From Clostridia bacterium (lineage in GTDB: Bacteria > Bacillota > Clostridia > Saccharofermentanales > UBA5734): a DNA stretch of 64,000 bases. The notes under the pieces were generated by a model. The model had not been told where the DNA came from and did no database searches. It worked only from the letters and a program-made list of their open reading frames with translations. The stretch covers positions 449,930 to 513,929 of the forward strand of contig JAXGXQ010000001.1 of the NCBI GenBank assembly GCA_040772685.1. Reading direction: 5' to 3'. Made by a program: the position numbers and the translations under genes. Of this stretch, positions 46,786 to 63,604 are shown piece by piece; the stretch's first letter is position 1; each line of letters begins with the position of its first letter.

Positions 46786-48246
46786 CTACTCAGCTTGTTT
46801 GCCGGCTGTTTTTGCCAACTGATTGAGAATGGAGGCGGCAGCAGCCAGAAAAATCAGATAATAAGGTGTTGTATAAGGCATAGTATTACCAAACAAGGCA
46901 GAAACAAAATAAGCAACTATTGTGCCCGCCAGAACGATGCCCTCAACACCCAGCTGCAGGCGGCTATACCAGAAGCGCTTGAACAAAACAGCCAGAGCGC
47001 CAAGATAGAACAATAGTGCCGGTATGCCCAGGCTGGCAGCCAGCTGGATAAGTTCATTGTGGGGCCGGTCTATATTCACATTAACAAGCAGATAGCGGGC
47101 GCCCAGATTATCAGGCCCATAGCCAAACCAGGGTTTTTCAGCGATAAAACGAACACCGTTGGTCCAGAGAACCCAACGTCCGGAACCGGCTCTGCCTGAT
47201 TCTTCGGCACGGCGCAGAATCAGGCTGAAATCACGGAAAAGACGCATTAAGTCAGCGCCCAGAACATTAGTATAAATATTCATCAACAATGAAACCAGCA
47301 GGAATAAGCCGCTGACCAGCAGCAGACGTTTCAGCTGATCAGGCTGCAGCCGGCGCAGGCCGATACCAACCGCTATCAGGCCGCAGACAACAGCCAGATA
47401 CGGCCCTAAAGACTGATCCTGCACTAAAGCGGCTGTCTGCAATAAAAAAGCCGCTAGATACAGGCCTCGATGCTGACGCTTTAATTCCGTTAAGTACAAA
47501 AGCAAAGCTGACATGATAGTCAGACAAAGGTAATAACCATAGTGATTGGAATTATAGAAAATACCTGTTCGAGCCCCGATACCGAGGCGCTGGTTTAGCG
47601 GCTCATAGTTAAGCAGCACTAATACAGCCATTAACGAGGAAACCGCTGTCAGCAGACGCAGCAGACGTTTAAAATCAGGCCAGTTTCTCAGCGCCAGGGC
47701 GCTTAAAAAAACTCCGCCATACATCAGGTAGGTGCGCAAGCCCTCGCGGCGATACTGATCGCCATACCAGGAAAGTAAACGGTTATCAGAAAAGAAAAAA
47801 GACAATACGCTCCAGCCAAGCAGCAGAGCAAGGCTCAGTTCAAAATAATGCGTTTTGAACCAGGCGCCTAGATGCAGCTGCTTGTGTTGAATCTGCCTGA
47901 AACCTTTAGCAAGCACAACTATACTCATCAACCAGCTTAATAAACCTGCCTGCTGCAGTATCTCTTCCCAGAAAAAGCTGCGTGAAAGATGGTTAAGCAT
48001 TAAGTTCAATTCAGTATTCGCCGGCAAAGCTATACTCCTGAGCATCACGATCAGGGGCCCAGCCAGCCAATAAAAGAGCGGCAGCTGCCGGGCTATATCA
48101 AGCGAGCGCGCTGGTATATAATCCAACAATTCCGGAACAGTTCGAATAGCCAGCAGTTCTGTTCTGACAGTACTCGCCCGCGCAAGAAAAAACACTGTTT
48201 TCGCACGTAGATTCAAACCGTTGCCCAGGCTGGCCTCGCCGCTCAT
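46786..48246 (-). CDS. O-antigen ligase / Wzy_C-family polytopic membrane protein
   Basis: 486 aa with at least 10 hydrophobic helices. It contains NSNHYGYYL and the C-terminal FGYGPDNLG......RPHNELIQLAASLGIPALLFY block typical of Wzy_C proteins. Its start overlaps the upstream stop (ATGA). Confidence 0.75.
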   Translation of the reverse strand: MSGEASLGNGLNLRAKTVFFLARASTVRTELLAIRTVPELLDYIPARSLDIARQLPLFYWLAGPLIVMLRSIALPANTELNLMLNHLSRSFFWEEILQQAGLLSWLMSIVVLAKGFRQIQHKQLHLGAWFKTHYFELSLALLLGWSVLSFFFSDNRLLSWYGDQYRREGLRTYLMYGGVFLSALALRNWPDFKRLLRLLTAVSSLMAVLVLLNYEPLNQRLGIGARTGIFYNSNHYGYYLCLTIMSALLLYLTELKRQHRGLYLAAFLLQTAALVQDQSLGPYLAVVCGLIAVGIGLRRLQPDQLKRLLLVSGLFLLVSLLMNIYTNVLGADLMRLFRDFSLILRRAEESGRAGSGRWVLWTNGVRFIAEKPWFGYGPDNLGARYLLVNVNIDRPHNELIQLAASLGIPALLFYLGALAVLFKRFWYSRLQLGVEGIVLAGTIVAYFVSALFGNTMPYTTPYYLIFLAAAASILNQLAKTAGKQAE

Positions 48247-49523
48247 ATAAATGTATCGCTGCTATCGGGGTTGAGCACGCTGTTGAGAAAATCGCGAGCA
48301 AACAGCAGATTAACTTCTTCCAGGCGCAACAGCACACGATTGCCGCGGTTTTTGGCCAGGACCAGCTCGCGCGCTGTAATTACCTTACCGTCAGGCGCGG
48401 CCAGCTCGGCCGGGTCCTGTTTGTTTTCCAGGGCAAGTTCAAGAGTCGGGCGATCGTAATACATAACCTGGTGGCTGAAATCCTGGTGATCCAGCAAGTA
48501 AAAGCCGGGGAACTCCAGCAATAAAACCGCCGGTGCCAACAGGCAGCAATTGACCAGTTGCATTAACAAGGGCTGGTACAAAGCGCGTTTGCGCTCCTGG
48601 CCAACCGTCTGGCGGCCAATCAGGTTAATCATGGCCCACTGCCGGAAATTCAACCTGACCTGCTCCGGCACAATTGCCCAGACTTGCAGGGCGTCAGCAC
48701 TGGCGGCGGCCGGGTCCGCTTTCGGCTTGGCCTGATCAGCCGCGGGCGGCATGCCAAACTGCTGCAGGATAACCTGATTCAGCGGGAGAAACTTCTGGTC
48801 GCCGCGAAACTCGTTGTAAATCGCTGTAATCAGCCGGGCCTTTTCAGCGGTTTCGGCCAGTTCCAGGCACTGGCTGAATAGTTCCGTTTCAGCGGCGGTA
48901 AGCTCGGGCGGGCACAACTGAAAAAATTCCAGCAGGAGGAGTGTCCCGAAGCGGCTGGCGGCATAAACGCTCAGCTCCGCCAGCTTGCTGCTTAAAGACC
49001 ATGGCCCGTTTACGCCGCTGAGCGGCTTTTGCTGTTCGTCAAGCAGAAACTGGGCTGTTTGGCGCGGCAGGCTTTCCTCGCAGCCAAAACGCCCGCACAG
49101 CGCCAGAAACGGCGGTGTTTCGCCTTTTGCTGTCAGGGCGGTATTCAGCCGGGCCATAGCTTCGGCTAATTCAACGTGGTAGAAGTGCTGCTGATAAAAC
49201 GCCCAGCCGGTTTGAGCCAGCGAAAGTGTCGCCCGGCGTTCAATAATCTGCTGAATGCGCTGCTGAGCCTGTTCAGTAGCAGTTAAGGCTGAAAGCGGCG
49301 CTTCAATTACCAGCAGCAGGCCAAACAGATCATTAAGCTGGCGCCTGGGCAAGCGGGCCACCAGTAAATCAAAGCCGTCACCGGTGGCGGTGGTTTCGAT
49401 CAGCTGCAGCAGCTCCTGCAGCCTGGTTTCATCAAGCCGGACAGAAAGCTCTTCCGGTAAGGGCTGCTGGCGAATAACCTGCTGGCGAACGTGATGAAGT
49501 TTTGAGTCGGACACATGCAGCAT
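48243..49523 (-). CDS. hypothetical soluble protein (426 aa), no motif recognised
   Basis: A long ORF with no TM segments. Its start abuts the stop of the 988-aa gene (TAAATG at 49521-49526). Confidence 0.6.
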   Translation of the reverse strand: MLHVSDSKLHHVRQQVIRQQPLPEELSVRLDETRLQELLQLIETTATGDGFDLLVARLPRRQLNDLFGLLLVIEAPLSALTATEQAQQRIQQIIERRATLSLAQTGWAFYQQHFYHVELAEAMARLNTALTAKGETPPFLALCGRFGCEESLPRQTAQFLLDEQQKPLSGVNGPWSLSSKLAELSVYAASRFGTLLLLEFFQLCPPELTAAETELFSQCLELAETAEKARLITAIYNEFRGDQKFLPLNQVILQQFGMPPAADQAKPKADPAAASADALQVWAIVPEQVRLNFRQWAMINLIGRQTVGQERKRALYQPLLMQLVNCCLLAPAVLLLEFPGFYLLDHQDFSHQVMYYDRPTLELALENKQDPAELAAPDGKVITARELVLAKNRGNRVLLRLEEVNLLFARDFLNSVLNPDSSDTFI

Positions 49524-52490
49524 TTACTGTGGTCTCCTGACAGGTGCCAGTGCCTGGGGCAGGCCGTCAACAGCGTCACCCAGTTCAGTAGTCGCGTGTG
49601 AGAGGCGCTTGAGCACATCGGCAATATTATGGTCGAATTCACTAACCATCTGGTTAAGCTCAGTGCGAATCTCAGTATTGAAGCTGGTTACAGAATCACC
49701 CAGAGTTGAGCTCAGGGCCTGAATATCGCTGTTGATCTGCTGCGCGAACAGGCTCATGCTGCGTGATTCTTCGCCGAGAATCTCAACCAGATTACGGACA
49801 TCATTGGCAAAGATGCTGTTTTGCTCATTCAGTGAGGCATGAACGCTGTTCACCAGGTCTTCCGTGATGCCGGTGAAACCGAGCGTAAGCTGTTCAATTC
49901 TGGTCGACAGTTCGTCGGAGAAGGTTGTAATCTGACCGGCAAGGTCGCTGATCTGCTGTTGATTCAGCTGATGCGAGGTTTCCATCTGTTCCTGCAGATC
50001 TCTGGCATTTTGTAAAGAGCTGGAGGTGATTTCAACCAGGCTTGTCTGCAGCGTGGTCATGGTCGCCGCCAGTTCGCCGATCGAGTCGGATAACCCAGAT
50101 TCACTGCCAGAGAAAATAGCGCTCATCTTATCAGCCGAGGTACTCATTGTCGCGGCGGAAGCCCGCAGCTCAGTCAGGTCCGTGAGCATGGTCGTGCGGG
50201 TTTCCACGAAGGCGTTGATCGCGTCCTTCATGCCTGCCTCAACCTCAACCACCTGTTCACGCTGCAGCTCGAAGGCGTCCTGGACTTTATCGGCATAAGC
50301 CTGAGCCGCTACCAGCACGTCCGCGGAAGCGATCAGGCGGTTGGATACCGGTTCCAGATATTTATCCAGATAACTGCCCAGGTTTTTGGCCACGTCAGCA
50401 GTCATGGAATCAAGGCTGCTTTGCTGGTAAGCAGCGATTTTATTCAGGGTAGCGTCCTGAGCCTGCTGTAATTGTGTAATAGCGGCCAGCTGCTGGGTCT
50501 GGAAAGCGGCCTGCAAGCGTTCCTGCAGCTCGTTGCTGGCGCTGGCCAGCGTTTCCTGGCTGGTTTGCAAAGAACGTACCAGATCCTCCTGACGCAGCTG
50601 GAAAGCCTGTAAAAGCTCAGCCTGGCGGCTCTGCATGGTGTTGGCAAGCTCAACCTGCTGCGTTTGCAGGGAACGGGCGAATTCATCCTGCCGGTTGCGC
50701 AGGTCGGCGCTGAGCGCGCTCTGCTGCCCCAGCAGCTCTGTGCTCACAGTTTTAGTTAAGTCGCTGGTTGAAGCGGCAAGTTCCTGCTGGCTTGTGGTCA
50801 GCAGACTGGTAAGGCTGCTCTGCTGCTCAGCCAGAGCGGTGCTCCACTTCTGCCAGGAATCGTCAAAGCGGGCCTGTTGACCAAGCAAAGTTTCGCCAGT
50901 GGCCGCCGACTGGCTGGCAAGGGTTGTCAGAATTTTATTTTGGATGCTGGTCAGCTCTTGCGTTACCTGCGTTTGCTGACCGGCCAGGGATTCTGTCAGC
51001 AACTCCAGTTTTTGCTCCAGTGTGGTTGCCAGCTTTTCGGTCAGGCTAAAGGTAGATGCCGCCAGTTCCGCTTGGCGATCGGTCAGCTGAGTCTGAAGCA
51101 GAGTCTGATTGGCGCTTAACCCGGCAGCCAGCTCGGCCTGTTGGTTGTTAACAGCGGCGAGCAGACCGGCCTGAGCAGTCTGCAGTTCATTGTTCAGTTT
51201 TTCCTGAGCGGCAACCAGGCTGGAAACAGTCAAAGCCAGGCCGCCCTGCCATTCCGACCAGGCCTGCTGATATTTTTCGGTCAGGGCGCTGCCGCTGGCC
51301 GTGTTCGCCGCGATTAAGCCCTTCATAGCCTGCTCGAAATCGCTCAGTAACCCTTTAACAGATTCCTGCTGTTCGTTGCTGAGTGTACGGTAGCTATATT
51401 GCTGGCCTTCGGAGAGCGCGGTTAAAGTTTCTTTCTGATTCTCAGTCATCATCGCCAGCGTCTGTTGCTGCTGGTCGCGAATCTGCTCCAGCAGCAGCGA
51501 TTGCACAGCGCCAAGCTGTTTAAAAGACATTTCCTGCTGCTGCAGCAAAGTTGAAGTAACTGTCTCATACTGGTTCTGCAGAAATTTGGCGCCTTCCGCC
51601 TGCTGGTACTCCAGCGCGATTAAACGGTCGCCCAGAGTGTTCAGGGAGCTGCTCATCTGCTTTTCCAGCTGAATGGCCAGCCTGGCCAGCGCTTCCGAGC
51701 TGCGCTGCAGCGGCGGGCCGATAGTAGCGGCAAGCAGATGCTTAACAGAATCAGTAATAGCCGTAGTAATTTCGCCGGCAGCCAGGCGCTCAACACGCTG
51801 GGTCAGCTGCCGGACTGAAGCCAGCATGGCCTCGTCATGGTCTGTATAACGGTTCAGAACTATCGCGGTTTCACCGGCCTGGGTGTAAACCGGCACCTTG
51901 CGCGTGAGCGTGTGCACCAGCTTGCGGTGGGCGCCGGCCAGGCTCTGCTGCAAGCGGCCGCGCTGCTCATAAAGAATAAACAGGGAAACCAGGCCGATAG
52001 CCAAGGGCATAAGCGCCAGAGCGCCGACCAGCGGCGCCAGGCTGAAGCTGCCGGCAGCAATAAAAGCCAGCAGCAAAGCCAGAACAAATAAGCCCAAACC
52101 GATAAGCCCGCTGAAGACCGGGCCATTATTACTGACAGCTGCCTGGGCCGCGGGCGCGCAGCTGGCCGGGTAAGGCAGGCGTGATTCCGGTTCCGGAATC
52201 CAGTTGCCGCGAAAAACATCCTGACTGTCCTGAGCTAAGAGTTTCACAGCACCGCCCAGTTCCGGCAGTTCCTGATTCACCTTGGCTTCCACCCGGGGCA
52301 GGTTATCGATACTGCAGCCCTTGAGAGTATCAAGCGAGGCGGCCAGCGCGTGCCAGCGTTCAGCTTCCTGCTCCACCTGAGCACGGTTACGCCGATACAG
52401 AAAGAGCGGGAATGCCGCACTGGCCAGAATGGCTAAGATAGAAACAACCAGCCACCAGATGCTTGCAAAGGTCAGAATCTCCCCGATCAT
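49524..52490 (-). CDS. membrane-anchored giant helical/coiled-coil protein (988 aa), unknown function
   Basis: TM1 spans residues about 5-30, followed by a loop of about 95 aa and a TM hairpin at about 125-175. The remaining roughly 800 aa are Q/L/A/T/S-rich with recurring Q(Q/R)xEL-type motifs. Confidence 0.65.
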   Translation of the reverse strand: MIGEILTFASIWWLVVSILAILASAAFPLFLYRRNRAQVEQEAERWHALAASLDTLKGCSIDNLPRVEAKVNQELPELGGAVKLLAQDSQDVFRGNWIPEPESRLPYPASCAPAAQAAVSNNGPVFSGLIGLGLFVLALLLAFIAAGSFSLAPLVGALALMPLAIGLVSLFILYEQRGRLQQSLAGAHRKLVHTLTRKVPVYTQAGETAIVLNRYTDHDEAMLASVRQLTQRVERLAAGEITTAITDSVKHLLAATIGPPLQRSSEALARLAIQLEKQMSSSLNTLGDRLIALEYQQAEGAKFLQNQYETVTSTLLQQQEMSFKQLGAVQSLLLEQIRDQQQQTLAMMTENQKETLTALSEGQQYSYRTLSNEQQESVKGLLSDFEQAMKGLIAANTASGSALTEKYQQAWSEWQGGLALTVSSLVAAQEKLNNELQTAQAGLLAAVNNQQAELAAGLSANQTLLQTQLTDRQAELAASTFSLTEKLATTLEQKLELLTESLAGQQTQVTQELTSIQNKILTTLASQSAATGETLLGQQARFDDSWQKWSTALAEQQSSLTSLLTTSQQELAASTSDLTKTVSTELLGQQSALSADLRNRQDEFARSLQTQQVELANTMQSRQAELLQAFQLRQEDLVRSLQTSQETLASASNELQERLQAAFQTQQLAAITQLQQAQDATLNKIAAYQQSSLDSMTADVAKNLGSYLDKYLEPVSNRLIASADVLVAAQAYADKVQDAFELQREQVVEVEAGMKDAINAFVETRTTMLTDLTELRASAATMSTSADKMSAIFSGSESGLSDSIGELAATMTTLQTSLVEITSSSLQNARDLQEQMETSHQLNQQQISDLAGQITTFSDELSTRIEQLTLGFTGITEDLVNSVHASLNEQNSIFANDVRNLVEILGEESRSMSLFAQQINSDIQALSSTLGDSVTSFNTEIRTELNQMVSEFDHNIADVLKRLSHATTELGDAVDGLPQALAPVRRPQ

Positions 52491-52922
52491 GAATTGCCCT
52501 CCCCATCTGCAGTTAAGTACTAATGCCGCGCCGCGACAGCGAATTCAGAAGATATTATTATTTTAACGGAAACCAGACTGGAATCCAGACGGTATAACAA
52601 ATGATACCGCAAATTAACCTGCTTGTCAGCTGAAACCGCAGCTAAAGCAGCAGCGTTTTAGGCAATGCTTATTACTGGCAGCAGAGGGCAATTCGCACCG
52701 CAACCTTCCTGCTGCCATTGAGTACCTAAACCCGTAAAGTCAATTAACAACCAGAATCAATCTGCTCGTTACCTTGTTCATTTATAAGTCATAATATTTA
52801 CATGAAGCCCTAACAAGTTGAGCAATGATTCTTTACTGGACAGATGCAAGTCAATATTAGTAAACTAAGCCCAATTAACCGTGCTATTAATCAAAAAATC
52901 ATCAAATTGTAGCAGTTGATAC

Positions 52923-52951
52923 TTGCTAAAACCGAAACACGTTACTATACT
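52923..52951 (+). promoter_or_regulatory. candidate sigma-A promoter for the pilin gene
   Basis: TTGCTA (52923-52928), a 17-nt spacer, then TATACT (52946-52951). This would leave a leader of about 145 nt. Confidence 0.3.
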
Positions 52952-53098
52952 GAGGTTGTAATGTATCTCAGCTGCAAATAAACTATTACTGCCCTGTATT
53001 CAGTTTATTTGTTGAGGAAATGACATCTTCCCTGCCCCTTTCCATTCATTTTACGCGTTAACAAAAAATGTTTCGAAAAGAAAACGGAGGTTTGAAAG

Positions 53099-53470
53099 AT
53101 GAAAAGAAAATCCAAAAAGGGTTTTACCCTAATTGAACTAATCGTCGTCGTCGCGATCATCGCCATTCTGGCAGCTATCGCAATTCCCAGATTCGCGAAC
53201 ATGCGGGCAAATTCTCAAGTAAGAGCTGAGGGTGCAACAGCGGCCCAGATCGTGACTGCCGCAAGAGTACAGGAAGCTGAAAAAGGTGCAAAAGTAAATG
53301 GTGATGCAGCTACAGCAATTTTAGACGAATATATGGATGCTCCAACTGGGTTTACAATCACTGGTGGTGCCGAAGATCCTTATGAAGTCAGTTGGACAAC
53401 ATCTGCTGCAGGTTACAAATCCTCACAGAAGTATACTGAGAATGTAGAGTTTAATCCAGCTAAATCATAA
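53099..53470 (+). CDS. type IV pilin / pseudopilin with a class III (prepilin) signal
   Basis: MKRKSKKG|FTLIELIVVVAIIAILAAIAIPRF is a canonical prepilin peptidase site followed by the hydrophobic alpha1 helix. 123 aa, ending ...NPAKS. An ACGGAGG RBS is present. Confidence 0.9.
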   Translation: MKRKSKKGFTLIELIVVVAIIAILAAIAIPRFANMRANSQVRAEGATAAQIVTAARVQEAEKGAKVNGDAATAILDEYMDAPTGFTITGGAEDPYEVSWTTSAAGYKSSQKYTENVEFNPAKS

Positions 53471-53531
53471 TTTATTAACCATTTTTTATAATCGAATTAA
53501 TCAAATATAATTTATTCAGCTAGCTAAAAAG

Positions 53532-53590
53532 AACTCCCCCGCTGTTCATAAATGGTAAAAAGCCATGACCGCGGGGGAGTTTTATTTTTG
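53532..53590 (+). terminator. intrinsic terminator after the pilin gene
   Basis: AACTCCCCCGC (53532-53542) pairs with GCGGGGGAGTT (53571-53581) and is followed by TTATTTTTG. Confidence 0.7.
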
Positions 53591-53674: not shown

Positions 53675-54007
53675 TCAGCCAACTGCTAGATCCGCTGTCA
53701 CCTCTGCTTCCAATTCCATAGCTTCTAGGTGTTTCATGTTCAGGTAATGCTTCGAACCCCAAAGCGAATCTTCCATGTAACGAAGCCTGGCACAGACCAG
53801 CATTAGGGCGGAATAGGCATCAGGGAAAGAGCCTACGACCCTGGTTCGTCGCCGGATTTCCCGGTTAAGCCGTTCGATGGCATTATTGCTGCGGATTTTC
53901 AGCCAGTGTTCACGAGGAAAAGCCATGTAGGTCAAGGTTTCAGCGATAGAATCTTCAACCTTTTTGGCTGCTTCTTTAAGCTTCATTTCCCGGAGTTTGA
54001 CAACAAC
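53675..54007 (-). pseudogene. IS256-family (mutator-type) transposase, C-terminal fragment
   Basis: KLREMKLKEAAKKVEDSIAETLTYMAFPREHWLKIRSNNAIERLNREIRRRTRVVGSFP is the conserved IS256 C-terminal block. The first residues of the track ORF are encoded by the IS21 end. Confidence 0.85.
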
Positions 54008-54172
54008 TGGAAACCACGCTCGCTTAAGGCCATCGCCGCACATAAATAAGGCCATCGCCGCGCACTAAGAAGGCCACTCGCGCGCTCGATGAAGGTCAGC
54101 CTGTAAATAATGTCAACCTTCAGTAGAATTTTATTGCCACCAGAGGTGGTAATTTTTTTATGGAGGTTTGAG

Positions 54173-55618
54173 ATGAGTTCAAACTATTTGTACATCGTGC
54201 GTTCTGTTTTCAATGGCATCAGTCAGAGGAAAGCGGCAAAATCACATGGTGTCTCCCGCGACACCGTATCGATTCTAGTTAACTATGCCCATAGTCGAGG
54301 GTGGATGAATCTTGAAGATCTGGAATCGTGTACCGAAGCGGATTTTGAGGCTGCCATGCAACGTAAGCCGGGTTTGGGAGCCAATCGAGACGTCTCGTAT
54401 GCGATGCCAGACTATGACTATGTTCACGCTGAACTAGGTAAGGAACATGTCACGCTCACCTTGTTATGGGAGGAGTATGTGGCAGATTGTATGGCAACTG
54501 GCAAACGTTATTACGGAGAAACCCAGTTCAGGCGGTACTACCATAGGCATGCCGGAATGTCGAAGGCGACTATTCGTTTAACGCATAAGCCGGGATTGTC
54601 TGTTCAGGTTGACTGGGCTGGCTCTCGTATCGCTTTCTATGACGAAGATGTGGGGGAAATGGCCCAAGCGTCCTTGTTTGTGGGTATTTTGCCGTGCAGT
54701 TCTCTTATTTATGTAGAATCGTTCCGGCATGAGAAAATGCCAAGTTGGATTTCCGCCCATAATAACATGTTCCAGTATTTCGGTGGAGTGCCAAGGACGG
54801 TCGTCACCGACAATCTTAAAGTAGGTGTAGACAAGGCTATCTTCTATGAGCCAAGCATCAATCGAACCTATCAAGAAATGGCTGAGCATTATGGGACGGT
54901 TATTCTCCCGACCAGAATCGCCAAACCGCGGAATAAAGGCGCTGTAGAAAATGCGGTCAAAATCGCATCACATAGGATTCTGGGCAAGTTGAGAAATCAA
55001 TCATTTCATACATTCTGTGAGCTGAAAGCTCACGTGGCAGACGCTCTGGAAGCCGTTAACTCGGCTCTGTTAACAGGGAAAAGCGTAAGTCGTTGGAGTT
55101 CTTTCCATGCTGAGGAGAAAGACTACCTGCTCACGCTTCCCCCAGAGCCCTTTATCTTGTCGGAGTGGACGACAGCCAAAATTCAACCAAATTGCCACGT
55201 CGCCTTCCAGGGCCATTACTATTCCGTGCCATTCGAATATCTAGGTGAAACAGCCGAGATTCGAGCCACGCAAGGAACAGTAGAGATATTTTACCATCAT
55301 CAACGTGTTGCTTCACATAAGCGGGAATGGGGACAGAAGCAGTACATCACCGTCACAGACCACATGCCCCCAAACAAGCTCTTCTTCGCTGACTGGAATG
55401 CGGATCGCTTCATTCAATGGGCTGCACAAATCGGGCCGTCGTGTAAGAAAGTCATCCGCCTGAACCTGGACGCCGCAGTGCACGAGCAACATGCTTACCG
55501 ATCCTGCTTTGGGATATTAGGACTCAAGGATAAATTCTCTTCAAAACGTTTGGAACAAGCGTGTCAGCTCATGTTGAGCCGTAGTTATTCGCCGCAATAC
55601 ATGTGTTTGGCAAGATAG
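54173..55618 (+). pseudogene. istA: IS21 IstA transposase (copy 1), interrupted after about 476 codons
   Basis: It has an HTH N-terminus and a DDE region (VQVDWAG, VVTDNLK). The reading frame is broken at 55601/55602 by the nested IS and resumes after 58093 (SQVKRILERKEDL...). Confidence 0.85.
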
Positions 55619-55730
55619 AAACCATCCATTGCGGAAGCTAAGAAACCAGCCAGCTGTAGAATAAAGACTCCACTGCCAACCACCCGCTCAGGTATCCTTT
55701 TAGTATTGCAAACTGAAAGGATGAACGGAG

Positions 55731-57251
55731 ATGTTAACAGTGGAGCAGATTTATGATATCAGAGAAATGTACTACAAAGAAAGTAGGAGCATCCGCGAAA
55801 TCTCGCGAATTACTCAGCGTGACCGCGGCACCATTAAACGTTATGTCGAACAAAATAGCTTCAGTCTTGATGCTCCCGTCCGCCAGCGACGCAGCAGAAA
55901 AACGGATGAGTATCGAGCGATGATTAAACAATGGCTGATCGATGACGAAAGAGCGCCGCGCAAGCAGCGCCATACAGCCAAAAAGGTCTACGACCGTCTG
56001 GTCGCAGAGCAGCAGAGAAAAGGACTTGTACTGGATATCTCCGACCGGAGCATCCGTACCCTGGTGGCAGAGATAAAACGCGAATTAGCTCAGCAGGAAG
56101 CAGCTTCACTGCCGTTGTTGCATCCTGCCGGAGAAGCGCAGGGCGACTTTGGCACAACCGTTTTTTACGAACGCGGTATTAAATACGAAGGTTATCACCT
56201 CTGTCTGACCTTGCCGCATTCAGATGCCAAGTATACCCAGCTTTTCAAGGGTCAGGACTTTGAGTGTCTGGCTCGCGGCTTAATCGAAATCTTCACACAT
56301 ATCGGCGGCGTGCCCACGGCAATCCGTTTCGATAACATGTCAACAGCGGTAAAGGCAATTAAGGCCCATGGCGGGCGCGAGCTGACAGACAATTTCCTGC
56401 GGTTGCAGTGTCATTTCGGGTTCGAGAGCAACTTTTGCAATCCGGCAGCCGGGCATGAGAAGGGATCAGTGGAGAACTTTGTCGGCTATAGTCGCCGCAA
56501 CCTGTTTGTTCCTGTCCCTGAGACTAATGACCTTGCCGCATACAATCAGGATCTGCTCCGGCGCTGTGATGCCCGTCTTGAAGAAGAGCATTACAAACTT
56601 GAACGTTTGGTGAAGGACCTGTTTACTGAAGACCAAGCCAGGCTTCTGCCGCTGCCGGCCTATCCCTTTGATGCCTGCCGCTATGTGCCGGCCCGGACTG
56701 ATAATTATGGCATGGCCAAGTACCAGACCAACCGCTACTCTACAGCCGGTCACCTCAGGCGCAGCAATATAACTTTGAAGGTTAACGCATATACGGTGAC
56801 GGTGCTGGACGAACAGATGCGAGTGATTGTCAGGCATCCTCGCATGTATGGACAAAAGAAAGAATCCATGATCTGGACCCCTTACCTGGAAGTACTGGCC
56901 AAGCGCCCGATGGCAATTAAGTACAGCGGTTTTTATGAGAATCTGCCCAGGCCACTGAAACGCTTTATGGATGACTGCGACCTTAGCGGCAAACAGCAGA
57001 TTCTGCAATTACTCGCCCGAGAGAGCAGCGACGGTGATCTTGATACCCCTTTATTTCACCTGACTGAGGCTGTTGGCCTGAACCCAACAGACGCTGACGG
57101 CCTGATCGCGACATACGCCTTTGTTACCAATAAACCGGGTCAGCCTTTGAAAGAATCCGTTCCTGAGCTATTGCCGGAAACACCCGGAATACAGTCTGGA
57201 TCTGGGCGTATATGGGCAACTCATGGGAGGGTTCGCATGTCAAAACAATGA
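55731..57251 (+). CDS. istA: IS21 IstA transposase (copy 2), apparently full length
   Basis: A 506-aa ORF with an HTH N-terminus and a DDE core (AQGDFG, IRFDNMSTAV, GHEKGSVEN). Confidence 0.85.
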   Translation: MLTVEQIYDIREMYYKESRSIREISRITQRDRGTIKRYVEQNSFSLDAPVRQRRSRKTDEYRAMIKQWLIDDERAPRKQRHTAKKVYDRLVAEQQRKGLVLDISDRSIRTLVAEIKRELAQQEAASLPLLHPAGEAQGDFGTTVFYERGIKYEGYHLCLTLPHSDAKYTQLFKGQDFECLARGLIEIFTHIGGVPTAIRFDNMSTAVKAIKAHGGRELTDNFLRLQCHFGFESNFCNPAAGHEKGSVENFVGYSRRNLFVPVPETNDLAAYNQDLLRRCDARLEEEHYKLERLVKDLFTEDQARLLPLPAYPFDACRYVPARTDNYGMAKYQTNRYSTAGHLRRSNITLKVNAYTVTVLDEQMRVIVRHPRMYGQKKESMIWTPYLEVLAKRPMAIKYSGFYENLPRPLKRFMDDCDLSGKQQILQLLARESSDGDLDTPLFHLTEAVGLNPTDADGLIATYAFVTNKPGQPLKESVPELLPETPGIQSGSGRIWATHGRVRMSKQ

Positions 57252-57962
57252 TTCTTGAGCTCTGCCGCCAGCTGCGTCTGGGTAACCATATCGCCGAGAG
57301 CTATGAAGATATTGAAGCAAAGACGAATGAAGAGTTTCTCATAAAGATTCTAACGGAAGCTGTTGCCCGCCGTGATACGGAACGACGCAAACGCTATATT
57401 CAGCAAGCCGGCTTTGATCTGATGAAAGGTTACGACAGCTTTGATTTCTCAGATATTGTCCTACCAGAGAGCCTCTCGCCAGCTAGCCTGCGTGCCTGTG
57501 AGTTTGTAGCCAACCGGCAGAACCTTATTTTGTACGGACGGCCAGGAACCGGCAAGACTCATCTGGCAATTACTTGTAGAATTGAAGCCTGCAAGCGCGA
57601 TTTCAAAGTTATCTACTACAAAGACCAGCCGACTGGTGAATCTGCTGTCACAAGCCAAGGGCGAAAACGAACCGAAAGCAAGTTCTGGCGCAAACTGCAG
57701 CAAGCCAACCTGCTGATTTTGGATGAGTGGGGCTACATCCCATTTGAGAGGGTCGGTACACAGTTACTGTTCGAGGCCATATCTGACTGTTATGAGAAAA
57801 CGGAGTGTGATAATTACGACCAACTTACCCTTTGACGAATGGAACACGATCTTCTATGACCAAAAACTGACGGCAGCCATTTTGGATCGTTTGATCCACC
57901 ATGGTTTGCTCCTGATGCACGATGGCCAGAGCTACCGCCTGCAGAATTCTCAGATGCAATAG
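57248..57962 (+). pseudogene. istB: IS21 IstB helper ATPase (copy 2), frameshifted
   Basis: The start overlaps the istA stop (ATGA). Walker A is GRPGTGKTH and Walker B is LLILDEWGY. The frame changes near 57800 (CYEK | SVIITTNLPFDEWNTIF). Confidence 0.8.
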
Positions 57963-58227
57963 CGGAGCACGAATGATTGGAATGAAGCGAGTGGCGGTAT
58001 TAATTTCCGCAGTGGTTGGTTTTTAGCTTCCATAGTGGTAGGTTTTTAATTTCCACGCTGGTTGGTTTTCTACTTGCCAAACACAGCAATACAGTCAAGT
58101 AAAACGCATTCTTGAGCGAAAAGAAGATTTGACGGCAGCAGAGACGGATATTAGCCAGCAGGAAAAACCGAAAGGCTTCCGCCGTGGCGCTGACTACTAT
58201 GGAAAAGAAAATTATGAGGATACGGTC

Positions 58228-58970
58228 ATGTTGAGAAATGAGACAGTACAACAACTGAGAGCATTGAGGCTCTCCGGATTTGCAGATGCATTGGAAGAAC
58301 AATACGCATCCATATCCTTTGAGGAATTAACTTTTGACGAGCGTCTTGGGCTCCTGGTCGATCGGGAAGTCTCAAAACGCAAGAGCAGCAAAATCGAGCG
58401 ATTCATTCGGCAGGCACGATTTCAGAACTCGGAAGCCTGTGTGGAAAACATCCATTACCATTCAGGACGCAAATTGGATCGAAAACTTATTCTTTGAGCT
58501 GGCCAGCTGTCAGTATATCCACCATGCTGGGAACGTCAACATCTTTGGTGCGACAGGTGCTGGGAAGAGCTATATCGGTCAGGCCTTGGGGCAGGCTGCA
58601 TGCCGCATGGGGATGGGCGCTCGATACATTCAATTGCCGGATCTGTTGGAAGAGTTGAAAATAGCCAGACAACACGGAACCGAGCGATGGACAAGGAAAC
58701 GGAAAGAATTTACTAACATTCCATTGCTTATTCTAGACGAATTCTTGCTGTTTAAAAATCGATGACTTGGACTGCCAGCATCTTCTGCAACTTATCGATC
58801 GGCGGAGTTCCAAAGGTCAACGATCGTCATCACACAGTACAACCCGGATGAGTGGATTGCACAGATGCCGATACAAGTGGCAGCGGGAAGCCATAACCGA
58901 CCGTTTGACGGCACAAGCATATTCGATCCTTATTGAAAGCAAGGAATCGATGCGAAACATCGGTAGCTAG
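58228..58970 (+). pseudogene. istB: IS21 IstB helper ATPase (copy 1), multiple frameshifts
   Basis: MLRNETVQQLRALRLSGFADALEEQ start, then Walker A GATGAGKSY and Walker B LLILDEF. The C-terminus lies in three different frames (breaks near 58490 and 58765). Confidence 0.8.
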
Positions 58971-59078
58971 GACATTTTTAGACTAAATCACTTTTATTGA
59001 GCGCGCGGGTGGCCTTTTTCATCCGCGCGCTTGGCCTTTTTAGTGCGAAGGACTGGCCTTTTTCATGCGCGGTTTCCA

Positions 59079-59950
59079 AACAACCGCTTTAGCTTTTTCC
59101 TGAGCAGCATCTTTGTCCTCTTGAGCGTGGATCGCCTTTAGCATCGCAGCCACATCTTTCATCTTTCCTCGGGGCACCACCGTGAAGACATTGCGATAAA
59201 AATGGATATAACACCGTTGGTATTTGGCATCTGGAAATACTGAGTTTATCGCATCCACAAGCCCTAAGCACTTATCGCCAATGAAAAGGCGTGTTCCGGT
59301 CAGACCCCGTTCTTTCAGGCTAACCAGGAAGTTTCGCCAGCTTTCCTTGTCTTCTTTCATGCCTTCAGCAGCACCGATGACTTCGCGCTGACCATCTGCG
59401 TTAACAGCCATTGCCACCAGGATTGCGACGTTTTCGAAACTGCCACCCCAGTTGCGTTTGAGATAAATGCCGTCCAGATAAACGTAAGGATAAGCCACAA
59501 GCAGAGCCCTGGCGCCATTCATCGATCTTGACGTAGACCTTCTGGTTTAGTTTGCTAACCGTTCCAGCGCTCACTTTCGTACCCCAAAGTGCTTCTGTGA
59601 TATCTTCCACTCGACGCACAGATACGCCGGCCAGGTACATCTCTACAAGCGCCTCTTCCACACTGATTTCACGCCGTTTATAGCGTTCAATGATCGCTGT
59701 CTCAAATGTCAGAGTCGCAGTTTCGGCACTTTCAGCTTAACCTCACCAGCTTTGGTTAAAAGCTTTCGTTTGTAATGCCGGCGCGAGTATCCAGACGGTC
59801 AGCCTTGCGCTCATAACGGGTCGCATTCGTCAGTCGATTTGCTTCTTCGTCCAGGAGCGCATTCAATGTGTCTTCTACACTTTGTCGCACCATTTCTCCG
59901 AGTTCTTGCTTTATGAGTCCCTCATTAAGCTGTATAATTTCTTTAGACAT
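59079..59950 (-). pseudogene. IS256-family transposase, N-terminal and central fragments with frameshifts
   Basis: MSKEIIQLNEGLIKQELGEMVRQ (RBS CAAGGAGA) is followed by VEMYLAGVSVRRVEDITEALWG and YPYVYLDGIYLKRNWGG...FPDAKYQRCYIHFYRN. These blocks lie in different frames. Confidence 0.85.
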
Positions 59951-60063
59951 GGCTCGTTCTCCTTGCTCGGTTTTATGTTTTTGTTTTCCACTTAACATTT
60001 TAACCAAGCGAACGGGTCATGTCCTTATTTTTCCGATTGTGCGAAACTTATGATACGTCATCT

Positions 60064-60148
60064 CTTGACGTAGACCTTCTGGTTAAGTTTGCTGACCGTC
60101 CAGCGCTCACTTTTGTGCCCCAAAGCGCCTCTGCGATATCTTCTACAT
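60064..60148. repeat. orphan fragment of about 85 bp from a second IS256-family copy
   Basis: It matches 59527-59610 closely by eye (cttgacgtagaccttctggtt.agtttgct.accgt...ccccaaag.gc.tctg.gatatcttc). Confidence 0.75.
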
Positions 60149-60205
60149 GGATGATGCAAGGGTTGCCTTCTCTATACATTCTGCTATAAACACAATAATT
60201 GCTTG

Positions 60206-61573
60206 CTACTCTAGGTGGTTACTAATAATGTAGTTCTCCACTCTATCTGCTTTTGCTTTTTCTTTTTTACTCCTATTAAAAGGATTTCGCATGAATTTTT
60301 TAAGCACAAACCCAATTGCTACAGCAAATGCTGCGTCAATCGCATACACATAATCGCCCACCATCTTACCGAATGCTGTATCTTTTACCCAGATGAAAAA
60401 CGACATGGCAAAATTCCATTGTTTATCACCAAAGAAAAACTGTAATACGATAAACACGATAAAAACAAGAGTAAGCAACACAGCAGCTATAGGCGCAAAA
60501 TAGTAATCGAAGAAATATCTAGGCAATATTTGTTTCTCAGCCAAATTGCAAATTTGCTCACGCTTTTTATCAAGCTCTTTTGATTTTTCTTCTATATCAT
60601 CTTGTTTTTGCTGGAGAAGCTTTTCTCGTGCTATCACATCTGATTGTAATTTCTGAACTTGCTGCTCCTTCTCAGCAGAAACTTCAGCGATGCTTACAAT
60701 TTGAAGACCTTTTTCCTTTAGTTGAGCTTCAAGATAGTTTTGACTGAATCGCTGTGTCTGCTTATAAAGATCATCATCTGTTTTACAGCGTTGAAGTATT
60801 TTTTGAAATTCATCGTCGTATACAGCAGAAACGAGCCCCTCTTGCGTCTCTATATCTTCGGTAATTGAGCTAATTCCAGAAATAATTATATTGGCCTTTT
60901 CTGGTGTGATTTGCTTGGAGGTTGCCCTAATATTTATAAAGCTAACAAAACTATCATAATCATTGGCAGAACGACCACACAGCTTTATCAATATCAAGAA
61001 TAGTTGGCTCGGATATACTACAACTGGATATAGGATCTCCCTTCTAGTCATATCCCAATAACGAAGAGCTTTGTCAGACGAAATTAAGAATATATCCTTA
61101 TCTTCATCATATTTCTCGCGTAATAGCTCAACATATCTTATTACAGTCGCATCATGACTATATCTAAGAGAATAAGATTCGTCCTCAGCTGTATAGAAAG
61201 GTTTCAGCTCAAGCTTTTTATTTTTTATAGATGATGAGTAAGCGTTTCTTTTTTCTTTGAATTCAGGTGAGTCATATATAAATTTTGGAATCTTTTCATC
61301 ATCTGTAATTCCATATTGCGATACTAAACTGTGATATAAGGTACGAATGTGAAAAATGAAATACTTCAAAGAAAGTGCGCTGTGGCTCTGATGCCAACTT
61401 TCATAAAACGCAAAGATATTATAATCTGTTAATTGTTCATAAGCGCCAGCAAAAACTTCGCCTCTTGGAAATTGTGCGATTTGCGATACATAGTAATCGA
61501 TCGTATCAAAAAATTCTTTTTTTGTAGAATGTGAAATGATAATTTTAACTTTTGCCTGCTTACACTTGCTCAA
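60206..61573 (-). CDS. hypothetical protein: soluble N-region + coiled-coil + C-terminal TM helices (possibly the surviving 3' part of a larger decayed gene)
   Basis: A 455-aa ORF in AT-rich DNA, with a TTG start and no convincing RBS. It has a coiled-coil (AEKEQQVQKLQSDVIAREKLLQQKQDDIEEKSKELDKKREQ) followed by 2-3 hydrophobic helices. The frame stays open 16 codons further upstream. Confidence 0.5.
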   Translation of the reverse strand: MSKCKQAKVKIIISHSTKKEFFDTIDYYVSQIAQFPRGEVFAGAYEQLTDYNIFAFYESWHQSHSALSLKYFIFHIRTLYHSLVSQYGITDDEKIPKFIYDSPEFKEKRNAYSSSIKNKKLELKPFYTAEDESYSLRYSHDATVIRYVELLREKYDEDKDIFLISSDKALRYWDMTRREILYPVVVYPSQLFLILIKLCGRSANDYDSFVSFINIRATSKQITPEKANIIISGISSITEDIETQEGLVSAVYDDEFQKILQRCKTDDDLYKQTQRFSQNYLEAQLKEKGLQIVSIAEVSAEKEQQVQKLQSDVIAREKLLQQKQDDIEEKSKELDKKREQICNLAEKQILPRYFFDYYFAPIAAVLLTLVFIVFIVLQFFFGDKQWNFAMSFFIWVKDTAFGKMVGDYVYAIDAAFAVAIGFVLKKFMRNPFNRSKKEKAKADRVENYIISNHLE

Positions 61574-62480: not shown

Positions 62481-62502
62481 CATCAGCGATAATGTCATCC
62501 CT

Positions 62503-63350: not shown

Positions 63351-63604
63351 TATTCCTCCTAGAATAATGTTGTCGTATGGTGACGGTAGATTACTGGATC
63401 AAAAGAACCTGCGATAATGCGGTATGTGGCTTCGAGTGTCGCCGGTGCTTTTGAGGCTTGTCCTCGTAAGGAGTCTGGTGTCTCTTTCGTGGCAGTTCAC
63501 GAAGAGCTGGATGTTGAGACCGTGGTCTACCGATCACTGTCAAGAGGTTGTGAGCCGCTTGAGCGTGAGGATTCATCCTGCAACTACGCTGTCAGAGGTG
63601 AATC

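What the first reader, a model, noticed from the sequence alone, without database searches (positions are those of the whole stretch)
53099..53470. Orphan type IV pilin ending in a C-terminal serine, divergent from an operon that contains a Wzy_C-family protein
The pilin has a textbook prepilin site (KKG|FTLIE), but no pilB/C/D/M/N/O genes occur anywhere in the 64 kb. Its last residue is Ser (...NPAKS). In Pseudomonas aeruginosa 1244, the pilin is O-glycosylated on its C-terminal serine by TfpO/PilO. TfpO/PilO is a Wzy_C-domain oligosaccharyltransferase encoded beside pilA, and Neisseria PglL belongs to the same family. A Wzy_C-family gene (46786-48246) lies in the divergently transcribed neighbouring operon. 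A pilin-glycosylation link is therefore a testable hypothesis.
Basis: partly seen in the sequence, partly recalled or inferred. Interest (0 to 1): 0.5.

Follow-up and report, generated by a model that had tools for sequence, protein, structure and literature searches.

The report
Ser-ended pilin beside a WaaL-like transferase
A pilus subunit gene ending in serine sits next to an operon with a WaaL-like sugar-transferring membrane enzyme, and in many other Gram-positive bacteria relatives of that enzyme lie inside pilus operons beside serine-ended pilins, so pilin glycosylation is a plausible but unproven function here.

Summary
Window 53099-53470(+) encodes a 123-aa type IV major pilin: prepilin motif KKG|FTLIE, own RBS and terminator, last residue Ser. 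Window 46786-48246(-) encodes a 486-aa Wzy_C protein with a WaaL-like fold and the conserved catalytic Arg and His. No pilB/C/D/M/N/O gene lies in the 64 kb.

New evidence partly supports the glycosylation idea. Of 79 species-level loci of Wzy_C relatives, 29 have type IV pilus genes within 10 kb. In 12 of the 14 loci where a major-pilin-sized gene lies within 1.6 kb, that pilin ends in Ser. The background rate is 11% (p about 2e-6). This is the TfpO pattern, and I found no report of it in Gram-positive bacteria.

The local link is weaker:
- The enzyme is 4.85 kb from the pilin. It is translationally coupled to two conserved unknown genes (988 and 426 aa) that travel with the pilin.
- Orthologous loci carry an LCP enzyme or nothing in its slot.
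- A strain that is 95.6% identical over this stretch has a pilin allele ending in His.
- The closest non-orthologous relatives lie in polysaccharide or housekeeping contexts.

The pilin looks orphaned because nested IS elements flank it. Verdict: plausible TfpO-like system, confidence about 0.45.

The parts
53099..53470 (+). Type IV (T4a-type) major prepilin, 123 aa. It has an 8-aa leader, cleavage at G|F, Glu at +5 and no Cys, and ends in ...FNPAKS.
   Evidence: Pfam N_methyl and TIGR02532 hits. Homologs at 47-62% identity (P0002, P0021, P0039) are the pilin gene of canonical pilB/pilC/pilMN operons, two of which also carry pilT (L092, L009, L096). Its C-terminal domain is hypervariable between strains.
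53086..53090 (+). Shine-Dalgarno GGAGG, 8 nt upstream of the pilin ATG.
   Evidence: Read directly from the sequence.
53530..53590 (+). Intrinsic terminator of the pilin gene: a 13-bp GC-rich outer stem followed by a U-run.
   Evidence: RNA fold -31.9 kcal/mol, z-score -5.9 against shuffles. The simple terminator scan missed it because of its long loop.
52491..53098 (.). 608-bp divergent intergenic region between the pilin and the 988-aa gene. It presumably holds both promoters.
   Evidence: 8 promoter-like sites against 3.1 expected. No Rfam family reached its gathering score here. The region is 88-100% identical (per 60-nt block) to strain L091.
49524..52490 (-). p988, a membrane protein with an N-terminal TM segment, a loop of about 95 aa, a second hydrophobic block (about 125-175) and a coiled-coil tail of about 800 aa. 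It is the first gene of the operon and a conserved partner of the pilin.
   Evidence: TM and hydropathy profile. Only sub-threshold coiled-coil-type Pfam hits. PADLOC ZorA models match the tail only (E 6e-8). Orthologs lie divergent from a pilin in L090, L091, L093 and L094. A same-architecture homolog follows pilMNO in L096 (E 4e-12).
48243..49523 (-). p426, a soluble, mostly alpha-helical protein of unknown function. Its family is very narrow. Its stop codon overlaps the Wzy_C start (ATGA).
   Evidence: No Pfam, NCBIfam or PADLOC hit. Only 8 homologs among 5.8 billion clusters. AF2 model pLDDT 79.6 with no PDB fold match. It always follows p988.
46786..48246 (-). Wzy_C / WaaL-fold polytopic membrane protein, 486 aa. 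It is a candidate Und-PP-glycan transferase (O-oligosaccharyltransferase or ligase).
   Evidence: Pfam Wzy_C E 1.5e-17. Family profile against WaaL 7TPG E 5.8e-8. AF2 pLDDT 90.8 with 7TPG as best PDB match, E 3.9e-6. R357 and H396 are invariant in 41 homologs and align to the Arg and His of the WaaL motifs.
53675..60007 (.). Insertion-sequence wreckage flanking the pilin. IS256/Mutator-family transposase fragments (53675-54055, 59040-60007) are interrupted by two IS21-family elements (istA 54110-55618 and 55731-57251; frameshifted istB 57212-57962 and 58129-58765).
   Evidence: Pfam Transposase_mut, rve/Mu-transpos_C_2 and IstB_IS21 hits. The IS21 block is absent from the conspecific MAG L002, where window 54007 joins 59079.

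Best explanation
The pilin is a genuine type IV major pilin of a Saccharofermentanales-type Clostridium. It is transcribed alone, and its exposed C-terminal domain is swapped between strains.

The divergent operon p988-p426-Wzy_C is a pilus-accessory operon. Its last gene encodes a WaaL-fold enzyme that takes a glycan built on undecaprenyl pyrophosphate at the outer face of the membrane. Most likely it transfers that glycan to the hydroxyl of the pilin's C-terminal Ser123 before or during pilus assembly. This would make it a TfpO-like, pilin-directed O-oligosaccharyltransferase.

**Shown:**
- the gene identities, the fold and the catalytic residues;
- the operon structure;
- the family-wide linkage of this enzyme family to pilus operons and Ser-ended pilins;
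- the synteny of pilin, p988 and p426.

**Inferred:**
- the acceptor (this pilin, at Ser123);
- the donor glycan, which must be made elsewhere because no glycan-synthesis genes are nearby;
- the presence of pilus machinery (PilB/C/D) elsewhere in the genome;
- any biological role. In Pseudomonas, pilin glycosylation blocks pilus-specific phages (my own knowledge, not tested here).
For: 1. **Family linkage to pili.** Of 79 distinct species-level loci encoding relatives, 14 have a major-pilin-sized prepilin within 1.6 kb and 15 more have pilB/T/C/M/N or prepilins within 10 kb. 23 have none with full flanks, and 27 have short flanks. By my rough estimate chance would give about 1%.
2. **Ser-ended neighbours.** In 12 of the 14 adjacent cases a neighbouring pilin ends in Ser, across at least 9 separate lineages: Acetoanaerobium, Acetobacterium, Eggerthellaceae, Acidaminococcaceae, Lachnospira eligens and others. 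The other two end in ...SA. 12 of 19 adjacent pilins end in Ser, against 1 of 15 non-adjacent pilins (p 0.001) and 13 of 120 homologs of the window pilin (p 2e-6).
3. **TfpO-like gene order.** pilB-pilT-pilC-pilin(...TGS)-Wzy_C-minor pilins-pilM-pilN in A. noterae. pilM-N-O-minor pilins-VWA protein-Wzy_C-DedA in Clostridium beijerinckii and relatives.
4. **This clade.** The closest relatives (70% identical) have a PilT ATPase gene 0.4 kb upstream of Wzy_C.
5. **Operon partners.** The pilin/p988/p426 arrangement is conserved in four other loci, one of which abuts pilO and minor pilin genes. A p988-like gene follows pilMNO in L096.
6. **Coupling.** A second species (L095) has p988-p428-Wzy_C with the same 4-bp overlap.
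7. **Enzyme features.** WaaL fold, invariant Arg and His, and a Wzy_C-only architecture as in TfpO and TfpM.
8. **Acceptor type.** Members occur in Acholeplasmataceae and Izemoplasmatales MAGs, taxa I know as wall-less. Attachment to peptidoglycan therefore cannot be the function of the whole family.
Against: 1. The enzyme is 4.85 kb from the pilin and on the other strand, not adjacent as tfpO, tfpM and pglS are.
2. The slot between p426 and ruvC holds Wzy_C in this species, L095 and L010/L012. It holds CoA_binding-337aa-LytR_cpsA_psr in L093 and L094, and nothing in L090. Wzy_C is therefore not a fixed partner of this pilin, and LCP enzymes normally attach wall polymers.
3. The pilin allele of a strain 95.6% identical over this stretch ends in ...VRH. 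The exchange breakpoint lies inside the pilin gene, so the pilin tail varies independently of the flank that carries Wzy_C. Whether that strain has Wzy_C is unknown, because the contig ends first.
4. The closest non-orthologous relative (43% identical) follows LytR_cpsA_psr in a polysaccharide cluster. Other close relatives sit among housekeeping genes.
5. Bootstrap support for any placement beyond the window/L010/L012 clade is below 70%.
6. A terminal Ser occurs by chance in about 1 of 9 pilins of this family.
7. No pilus machinery, prepilin peptidase or glycan-synthesis genes lie in the window.
8. There is no experimental evidence.
Confidence: 0.45

Rival explanations
1. The Wzy_C protein is a cell-envelope glycopolymer ligase or polymerase, or a general O-oligosaccharyltransferase with many targets. 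It is unrelated to this pilin. It occupies a variable slot upstream of ruvCAB that in related genomes holds an LCP wall-polymer transferase. The pilin's terminal Ser is coincidence.
For: The slot holds LytR_cpsA_psr in L093 and L094 and is empty in L090. The 43%-identical relative lies at the end of a glycosyltransferase/epimerase/LCP cluster. Many close relatives are stand-alone among housekeeping genes. The best structural match is an O-antigen ligase. 11% of pilin homologs end in Ser. A near-identical strain carries a His-ended pilin allele.
Against: Relatives are strongly enriched in pilus operons next to Ser-ended pilins. The gene is translationally coupled to p426 and co-operonic with p988, both of which are syntenic with pilins. 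A PilT gene adjoins it in the closest relatives. Family members occur in wall-less lineages. No polysaccharide-synthesis genes lie nearby in the window.
Confidence: 0.35
2. The Wzy_C protein works in the pilus system but on a different acceptor or site. Candidates are internal Ser or Thr residues of the pilin (PglL- or PglS-like), minor pilins, or the extracytoplasmic loop of p988. In this reading the terminal Ser is not the site.
For: It shares an operon with p988 and p426 rather than with the pilin. Pilin tails in the family are rich in Thr, Ser, Pro and Ala. In several relatives Wzy_C follows pilC or a ROK kinase with no adjacent pilin (L053, L056, L059, L060, L065, L075). The His-ended allele occurs in a sister strain.
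Against: Where a pilin is adjacent it nearly always ends in Ser, which points to a C-terminal site. The protein lacks the PglL_A and Wzy_C_2 domains typical of PglL and PglS.
Confidence: 0.12
3. The pilin gene is a stranded remnant. IS-mediated rearrangement separated it from, or the lineage lost, the assembly machinery. No pilus is made, and any pilin-enzyme relationship is vestigial.
For: No pilus machinery lies in the 64 kb. Nested IS256 and IS21 elements and low-GC DNA lie directly after the pilin. In L010-type genomes the pilin/p988 part has been deleted, leaving a p426 stub.
Against: The ORF is intact, with a good RBS and terminator. Its promoter region is conserved and its C-terminal domain has been exchanged between strains, which is the pattern of an expressed, selected surface protein. 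The apparent truncation in MAG L002 comes from homopolymer-type indels, which look like assembly errors. Clostridia commonly keep pilins away from pilB/C (my knowledge).
Confidence: 0.08

Closest known systems
TfpO (PilO) of Pseudomonas aeruginosa 1244 and Acinetobacter, with their group I pilins
   Same: A Wzy_C-only polytopic enzyme, genetic linkage to a type IV major pilin, and a pilin that ends in Ser. The 1244 glycotag ends ...APKS and this pilin ends ...PAKS (PMC12645811). The catalytic His is conserved.
   Different: It is from a Gram-positive-type (Clostridia) host. The gene is not immediately downstream of the pilin: it is 4.85 kb away, divergent, and third in an operon with two unknown genes. 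Sequence relatedness to TfpO could not be tested. No PDB or NCBIfam model links them. No glycosylation has been shown.
TfpM of Moraxellaceae
   Same: A pilin-specific Wzy_C enzyme that acts on the C-terminal residue (Ser or Thr). It lacks PglL_A and Wzy_C_2 and forms its own clade, only 15-26% identical to other O-OTases (PMC9829042).
   Different: TfpM is encoded directly after its pilin. In the Firmicutes family the neighbouring pilins end in Ser; no Thr-ended case was seen.
WaaL O-antigen ligase (Cupriavidus metallidurans, PDB 7TPG)
   Same: It is the best sequence-profile match (E 5.8e-8) and the best fold match (E 3.9e-6, TM-score 0.59 normalised to the WaaL chain). The Arg and His motifs align.
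   Different: WaaL ligates O-antigen to lipid A-core. The organism is named as a Saccharofermentanales MAG (Clostridia), a group I expect to lack LPS. The window protein also has a conserved N-terminal extension of about 120 aa with no counterpart in the sequence-profile match to WaaL.
PglL / PglS general or ComP-specific O-oligosaccharyltransferases
   Same: The Wzy_C catalytic domain and an Und-PP-glycan donor. They can glycosylate pilins.
   Different: The PglL_A and Wzy_C_2 domains that mark these classes are absent here at E up to 0.01.
Gram-positive S-layer O-oligosaccharyltransferases (WsaB of Geobacillus, WsfB of Paenibacillus)
   Same: Wzy_C-type enzymes of Firmicutes that glycosylate a surface protein (my own knowledge; the S-layer glycome review PMC2943079 came up but was not read).
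   Different: Their targets are S-layer proteins and they are encoded in S-layer glycan clusters. No pilus linkage has been described. Not compared by sequence here.

Membership tests
Type IV (T4a) major pilin | Class III signal peptide: short basic leader, G|F cleavage site, Glu at +5 and a hydrophobic N-terminal helix. | tested here: met
   MKRKSKKG|FTLIELIVVVAIIAILAAIAIP. N_methyl E 4.5e-10 and TIGR02532 E 1.2e-9.
Type IV (T4a) major pilin | Orthologs occupy the pilin position of pilB/pilC/pilMNO operons. | tested here: met
   Homologs P0002 (62%), P0021 (52%) and P0039 (47%) sit between pilC and pilM in L092, L009 and L096.
Type IV (T4a) major pilin | Assembly machinery and prepilin peptidase are present in the same genome. 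| not testable with these tools
   None in the 64-kb window. The rest of the genome could not be searched.
TfpO/PilO-class pilin O-oligosaccharyltransferase | Wzy_C domain without PglL_A or Wzy_C_2. | tested here: met
   Only PF04932 is hit. The class definition is from PMC12645811.
TfpO/PilO-class pilin O-oligosaccharyltransferase | Conserved catalytic His (and Arg) of the Wzy_C domain. | tested here: met
   R357 and H396 are invariant in 41 homologs and align to the WaaL motifs.
TfpO/PilO-class pilin O-oligosaccharyltransferase | Encoded immediately next to its cognate pilin gene. | tested here: not met
   It lies 4,853 bp away on the opposite strand with two genes between. The feature is met by many relatives, such as L008 and L041-L045.
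TfpO/PilO-class pilin O-oligosaccharyltransferase | The cognate pilin ends in Ser. | tested here: met
   The pilin ends ...NPAKS. 12 of 14 pilin-adjacent relatives also have a Ser-ended pilin.
TfpO/PilO-class pilin O-oligosaccharyltransferase | Clusters phylogenetically with characterised TfpO proteins. | not testable with these tools
   No TfpO, TfpM or PglL sequence was obtainable. None is among the PDB sequence or fold hits, and the paper's supplement is not held.
TfpO/PilO-class pilin O-oligosaccharyltransferase | Demonstrated transfer of a glycan to the pilin. | not testable with these tools
   This needs an experiment.
PglL/PglS O-oligosaccharyltransferases | PglL_A (PF15864) and Wzy_C_2 (PF11846) domains alongside Wzy_C. 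| tested here: not met
   Neither is found at E up to 0.01.
WaaL O-antigen ligase superfamily (GT-C, Wzy_C) | WaaL-like polytopic fold with an extracytoplasmic Arg/His active site. | tested here: met
   AF2 model pLDDT 90.8. 7TPG is the top hit with probability 1.0. Profile hit E 5.8e-8.
Cell-wall polysaccharide ligase/polymerase of a glycan gene cluster | Encoded within a cluster of glycosyltransferases, sugar-nucleotide enzymes, a flippase or an LCP. | tested here: not met
   No such genes flank it in the window. The feature is met by relative L013, and an LCP fills the same slot in L093 and L094.
Zorya ZorA (considered for p988) | MotA/ExbB-type N-terminal membrane domain plus a partner ZorB with a peptidoglycan-binding domain. 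| tested here: not met
   ZorA models match only the coiled-coil tail (E 6e-8), and no ZorB-like gene is present. In contrast, L009's 595-aa and 293-aa pair hits ZorA including the N-terminus, and ZorB at 1e-28.

The most novel reading that the evidence does not exclude
Firmicutes and some other Gram-positive lineages possess a previously undescribed family of pilin-directed O-oligosaccharyltransferases. These are WaaL-fold, Wzy_C-only enzymes, embedded in or beside type IV pilus operons. They glycosylate the C-terminal serine of the major pilin, as a monoderm counterpart of TfpO and TfpM. The window shows a derived arrangement in which the enzyme is fused into an operon with two further unknown pilus-accessory proteins (p988 and p426). 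Cultured carriers such as Acetoanaerobium noterae, Acetobacterium bakii, Lachnospira eligens and Clostridium beijerinckii would make this directly testable. The enzymes could also serve as new glycoengineering tools.
Probability: 0.5. Interest if true: 0.7.

Novelty: new variant of a known kind. Interest (0 to 1): 0.55.

Why it matters
According to the reviews read here (PMC12645811, PMC9829042), the known pilin-specific O-oligosaccharyltransferases (TfpO, TfpM, PglS) come from Pseudomonas, Acinetobacter and Moraxellaceae. The review and the survey of Gram-positive type IV pili that I term-searched for 'glycos' do not mention glycosylation at all (PMC6916266, PMC3244431).

If this Firmicutes Wzy_C family glycosylates Ser-ended pilins, several things follow:
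- Pilin glycosylation would be a widespread trait of gut, rumen and digester Clostridia.
- It would bear on phage resistance, adhesion and immune recognition.
- It would give a simple genomic rule (a Wzy_C gene beside a Ser-ended pilin) for predicting the modification.
- It would add enzymes with possibly new glycan specificities to the bioconjugate-vaccine toolbox.

For this window specifically, the work also defines a conserved pilin/p988/p426 module of unknown function.

Tried and rejected
1. **Direct PDB sequence search.** The Wzy_C protein found nothing. Only the family profile reached WaaL.
2. **Reference sequences.** I tried to get TfpO, TfpM and PglL sequences from the TfpM paper's supplement, but it is not held.
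3. **Tree within the family.** NJ with 100 bootstraps resolves only the window/L010/L012 clade. Deeper nodes have 6-66% support, so it cannot assign the protein to a pilus-linked or a polysaccharide-linked subclade.
4. **Stand-alone relatives.** Their neighbours are a mix with no informative pattern: PGA_cap, RNase G, topoisomerase I, RmlD, PlsY and ABC permeases.
5. **p426.** There are no family hits, only 8 homologs, and a confident model with no PDB fold match. A suspected link to the 491-aa protein after the p988-like gene in L096 was not supported (hhalign probability 2.7%).
6. **p988 as Zorya ZorA.** Rejected, because only the coiled-coil tail matches and there is no ZorB.
7. **Riboswitch upstream of the pilin** (as for C. 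difficile pilA1). No Rfam family reached its gathering score.
8. **Metagenome scans.** Two scans, with p426 and p988, meant to enlarge the set of orthologous loci returned nothing. The test 'is Wzy_C presence linked to a Ser-ended pilin at this locus' therefore rests on very few loci.
9. **Truncated 51-aa pilin in MAG L002.** It is explained by homopolymer-type indels, not a real difference.
10. **C-terminal Ser as a conserved feature of this pilin's own family.** Rejected: 13 of 120.
Full report
**1. What is at the coordinates**

Window 53099-53470(+) is an intact 123-codon ORF. It is preceded by GGAGG at 53086-53090. A GC-rich hairpin plus U-run follows at 53530-53590 (-31.9 kcal/mol, z -5.9).

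The product starts MKRKSKKG|FTLIELIVVVAIIAILAAIAIP. It matches Pfam N_methyl (4.5e-10) and TIGR02532. It has no cysteine and ends ...YTENVEFNPAKS.

Its homologs (up to 62% identity, more than 5,000 hits) are small clostridial pilins. Where context is available, they occupy the pilin position of canonical operons:
- L092: pilB-pilC-pilin-pilM-pilN-...-minor pilins-pilD.
- L096: pilB-pilT-pilC-pilin-pilM-pilN-pilO.
- L009.

So this is a T4a-type major pilin, not a competence pseudopilin.

**2. The neighbouring operon**

On the minus strand lie three tightly packed genes:
- p988 (49524-52490);
- p426 (48243-49523), which abuts p988;
- the 486-aa Wzy_C protein (46786-48246), whose ATG overlaps the p426 stop (ATGA).

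After a 208-bp gap come ruvC, ruvA, ruvB and queH.

The Wzy_C protein hits only PF04932 (1.5e-17). It has no PglL_A or Wzy_C_2 domain and no NCBIfam hit. A profile of 41 homologs matches the WaaL structure 7TPG (5.8e-8), with the Arg and His motifs aligned. R357 and H396 are invariant. The AlphaFold model is confident (pLDDT 90.8), and its best PDB match is again WaaL, followed by FtsW and RodA.

**3. Is the pilin an orphan?**

Pfam scans of every large ORF and BLAST with Pil queries found no pilB/T/C/D/M/N/O in the 64 kb.

Directly after the pilin terminator lie fragments of an IS256-family transposase, interrupted by two IS21 elements. Low-GC DNA follows. A conspecific MAG (L002, 99% identical) lacks the IS21 block.

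In related species the same locus touches pilus genes:
- L094 has pilO-DUF7305-minor pilins-IS110-pilin, divergent from p988.
- L010 and L011 have a bona fide PilT ATPase 0.4 kb upstream of a p426 stub and Wzy_C.

The 'orphan' state is therefore local and probably shaped by IS activity. Whether machinery exists elsewhere in the genome could not be checked.

**4. Comparative test of the glycosylation idea: the enzyme family**

The exact Wzy_C protein occurs in a Saccharofermentanales MAG. It has 85 detectable homologs, all Wzy_C-only.

In Acetoanaerobium noterae the 35%-identical homolog sits in pilB-pilT-pilC-pilin-Wzy_C-pilX-like-minor pilins-pilM-pilN. The upstream pilin ends ...EITGITGS.

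I then fetched 80 genome loci of relatives and annotated them with BLAST and a prepilin pattern. Among 79 distinct loci:

| Context | Loci |
|---|---|
| Major-pilin-sized prepilin within 1.6 kb | 14 |
| Other pilus genes within 10 kb | 15 |
| None, with full flanks | 23 |
| Flanks too short to judge | 27 |

In 12 of the 14 adjacent cases a neighbouring pilin ends in Ser: TGITGS, GETTIS, FVISQS, GTTTVS, TVEVIS, PTTGKS, TSSFVS, GNASMS, ATLLNS, SDYNAS, NAYAFS and VYDVES. The other two end in ...ASA.

Ser ends 12 of 19 adjacent pilins, 1 of 15 non-adjacent prepilins in the same loci, and 13 of 120 homologs of the window pilin. Fisher p is 0.001 and 2e-6 respectively. The Ser-ended cases come from at least nine separate lineages, including an Eggerthellaceae MAG (an actinobacterial family) and an Acidaminococcaceae MAG (Negativicutes).

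In the Clostridium beijerinckii group the gene closes a pilM-N-O-minor pilin-VWA protein operon. A DedA/VTT gene follows it.

This is the signature of TfpO and TfpM: a pilin-linked, Wzy_C-only enzyme with a C-terminal Ser or Thr acceptor (PMC12645811, PMC9829042). I found no description of it for monoderm bacteria. A term search of the review and the survey of Gram-positive type IV pili found no word beginning 'glycos', and four other searches gave nothing relevant.

**5. Comparative test: this particular locus**

The conserved partners of the pilin are p988 and p426, not Wzy_C.

| Locus | Content between pilin and ruvCAB | Pilin C-terminus |
|---|---|---|
| L090 (p988 64%, p426 50%, pilin 60% identical) | p988-p426, no Wzy_C | ...PLTT |
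| L093, L094 | p988-p426-CoA_binding-337aa-LytR_cpsA_psr | ...TWP, ...DPK |
| L095 (a second species) | p988-p428-Wzy_C, same 4-bp overlap; contig ends just after Wzy_C, before any ruvC ORF | pilin not on contig |
| L091 (95.6% identical to the window) | p988, then p426 cut by the contig end | ...TPVRH |

L091 matches the window from p426 to the start of the pilin. Identity collapses from about 97% to about 50% after roughly position 53177, inside the pilin gene. The metagenome contig L003 also breaks there. This is typical allelic replacement of an exposed pilin domain. It shows that the pilin tail varies independently of the flank that carries Wzy_C.

A p988-like protein follows pilMNO in L096. 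It has the same length and architecture and a colinear C-terminal motif (E 4e-12). This supports a pilus-accessory role for p988.

p426 has 8 homologs in total, a confident but unmatched fold, and no assignable function.

**6. Where the enzyme sits in its family**

The NJ tree intermixes pilus-linked and stand-alone members. Bootstrapping supports only the window/L010/L012 clade (100%). Everything deeper is unresolved.

The closest outgroup members are L013 (43% identical) and several stand-alone genes. L013 follows LytR_cpsA_psr at the end of a glycosyltransferase and epimerase cluster. The stand-alone genes lie among housekeeping genes.

Homologs in Acholeplasmataceae and Izemoplasmatales MAGs, taxa I know as wall-less, argue that the family as a whole does not need peptidoglycan as acceptor.

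**7. Interpretation**

The best reading (about 0.45) is a TfpO-like system. The WaaL-fold enzyme, co-expressed with pilus-accessory proteins p988 and p426, transfers an Und-PP-linked glycan made elsewhere to Ser123 of the divergently encoded pilin.

The main rival (about 0.35) is a wall-glycopolymer ligase or general transferase sitting in a variable slot upstream of ruvCAB. Lesser rivals are a pilus-related enzyme with a different acceptor (about 0.12) and a stranded, unused pilin (about 0.08).

The gene identities, fold, catalytic residues, operon structure, family-wide association and synteny are shown. The acceptor, donor and biological role are inferred.

**8. Novelty and score**

The individual genes are ordinary. 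What is new is the family-level pattern: Wzy_C enzymes in Gram-positive pilus operons beside Ser-ended pilins, plus the pilin/p988/p426 module. This would be a new variant of a known kind. It is directly testable in cultured species. Interest is 0.55.

Noticed in passing
window 53177-53470, compared with L091:4772-5152 and the end of L003: Between strains that are about 96% identical, nucleotide identity drops from about 97% to about 50% inside the pilin gene, just after the N-terminal helix region. A short-read metagenome contig also ends there. This suggests allelic replacement of the exposed pilin domain.
   Followed up: yes
window 49524-52490 and 48243-49523; L090, L091, L093, L094, L095, L096: A conserved pair of unknown proteins travels with a divergent pilin in several species: a membrane coiled-coil protein of about 1000 aa and a soluble helical protein of about 420 aa. 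A p988-like gene also follows pilMNO in L096. Their function is unknown. The slot after them holds Wzy_C, an LCP enzyme or nothing.
   Followed up: partly
L009:9431-12071: Directly after a canonical pilus operon (pilM-N-O) lie a 595-aa protein that matches ZorA models including the N-terminal domain (7e-12) and a 293-aa ZorB/MotB-like protein (1.4e-28). p988 resembles only the ZorA tail. Whether long-tailed MotA-like proteins have a pilus-related role in Clostridia is open.
   Followed up: partly
window 53675-60007: Nested insertion sequences: an IS256/Mutator-family transposase gene is broken by two IS21-family elements (istA intact, both istB frameshifted). The IS21 block is absent from the conspecific MAG L002.
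   Followed up: partly
window 60000-64000: The GC content drops to 35-40%. The region holds a 455-aa ORF (60206-61573, minus strand) with a coiled-coil and C-terminal hydrophobic segments and no Pfam hit. It is probably foreign DNA next to the IS cluster.
   Followed up: no
window 9140-11733: A 351-aa ORF with a TadE-like N-terminus and an overlapping 513-aa ORF with a weak DUF5702 hit lie downstream of ABC transporter genes. No other Tad pilus genes are nearby.
   Followed up: no
L016:9968-12163 and L015:9932-12426: In the Clostridium beijerinckii group the Wzy_C homolog that closes the pilus operon is followed by a DedA/VTT-domain gene. From my own knowledge this family is implicated in undecaprenyl-phosphate recycling, which fits a lipid-linked glycan donor.
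   Followed up: partly
L030, L031, L033-L035, L038, L044: Wzy_C-family homologs (31-37% identical) occur as stand-alone genes in Acholeplasmataceae, Izemoplasmatales and other Mollicutes MAGs (taxa I know as wall-less), next to ABC permease or PlsY genes.
   Followed up: no
L002:4750-5165 and L002:5773-8723: In MAG GCA_050948965.1 the pilin and p988 genes appear truncated or split because of single-base homopolymer-type indels relative to the window. They look like assembly errors. Similar splits affect p426 in L090 and p988 in L094.
   Followed up: yes
window 18254-18482: A T-box leader (98 bits) lies upstream of the pheS-pheT genes. It is the only Rfam family in the window that reaches its gathering score.
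   Followed up: no
window 35418-37861: Two tandem 407-aa paralogs with ribose-phosphate pyrophosphokinase domains are followed by an oxaloacetate decarboxylase beta-subunit gene.
   Followed up: no
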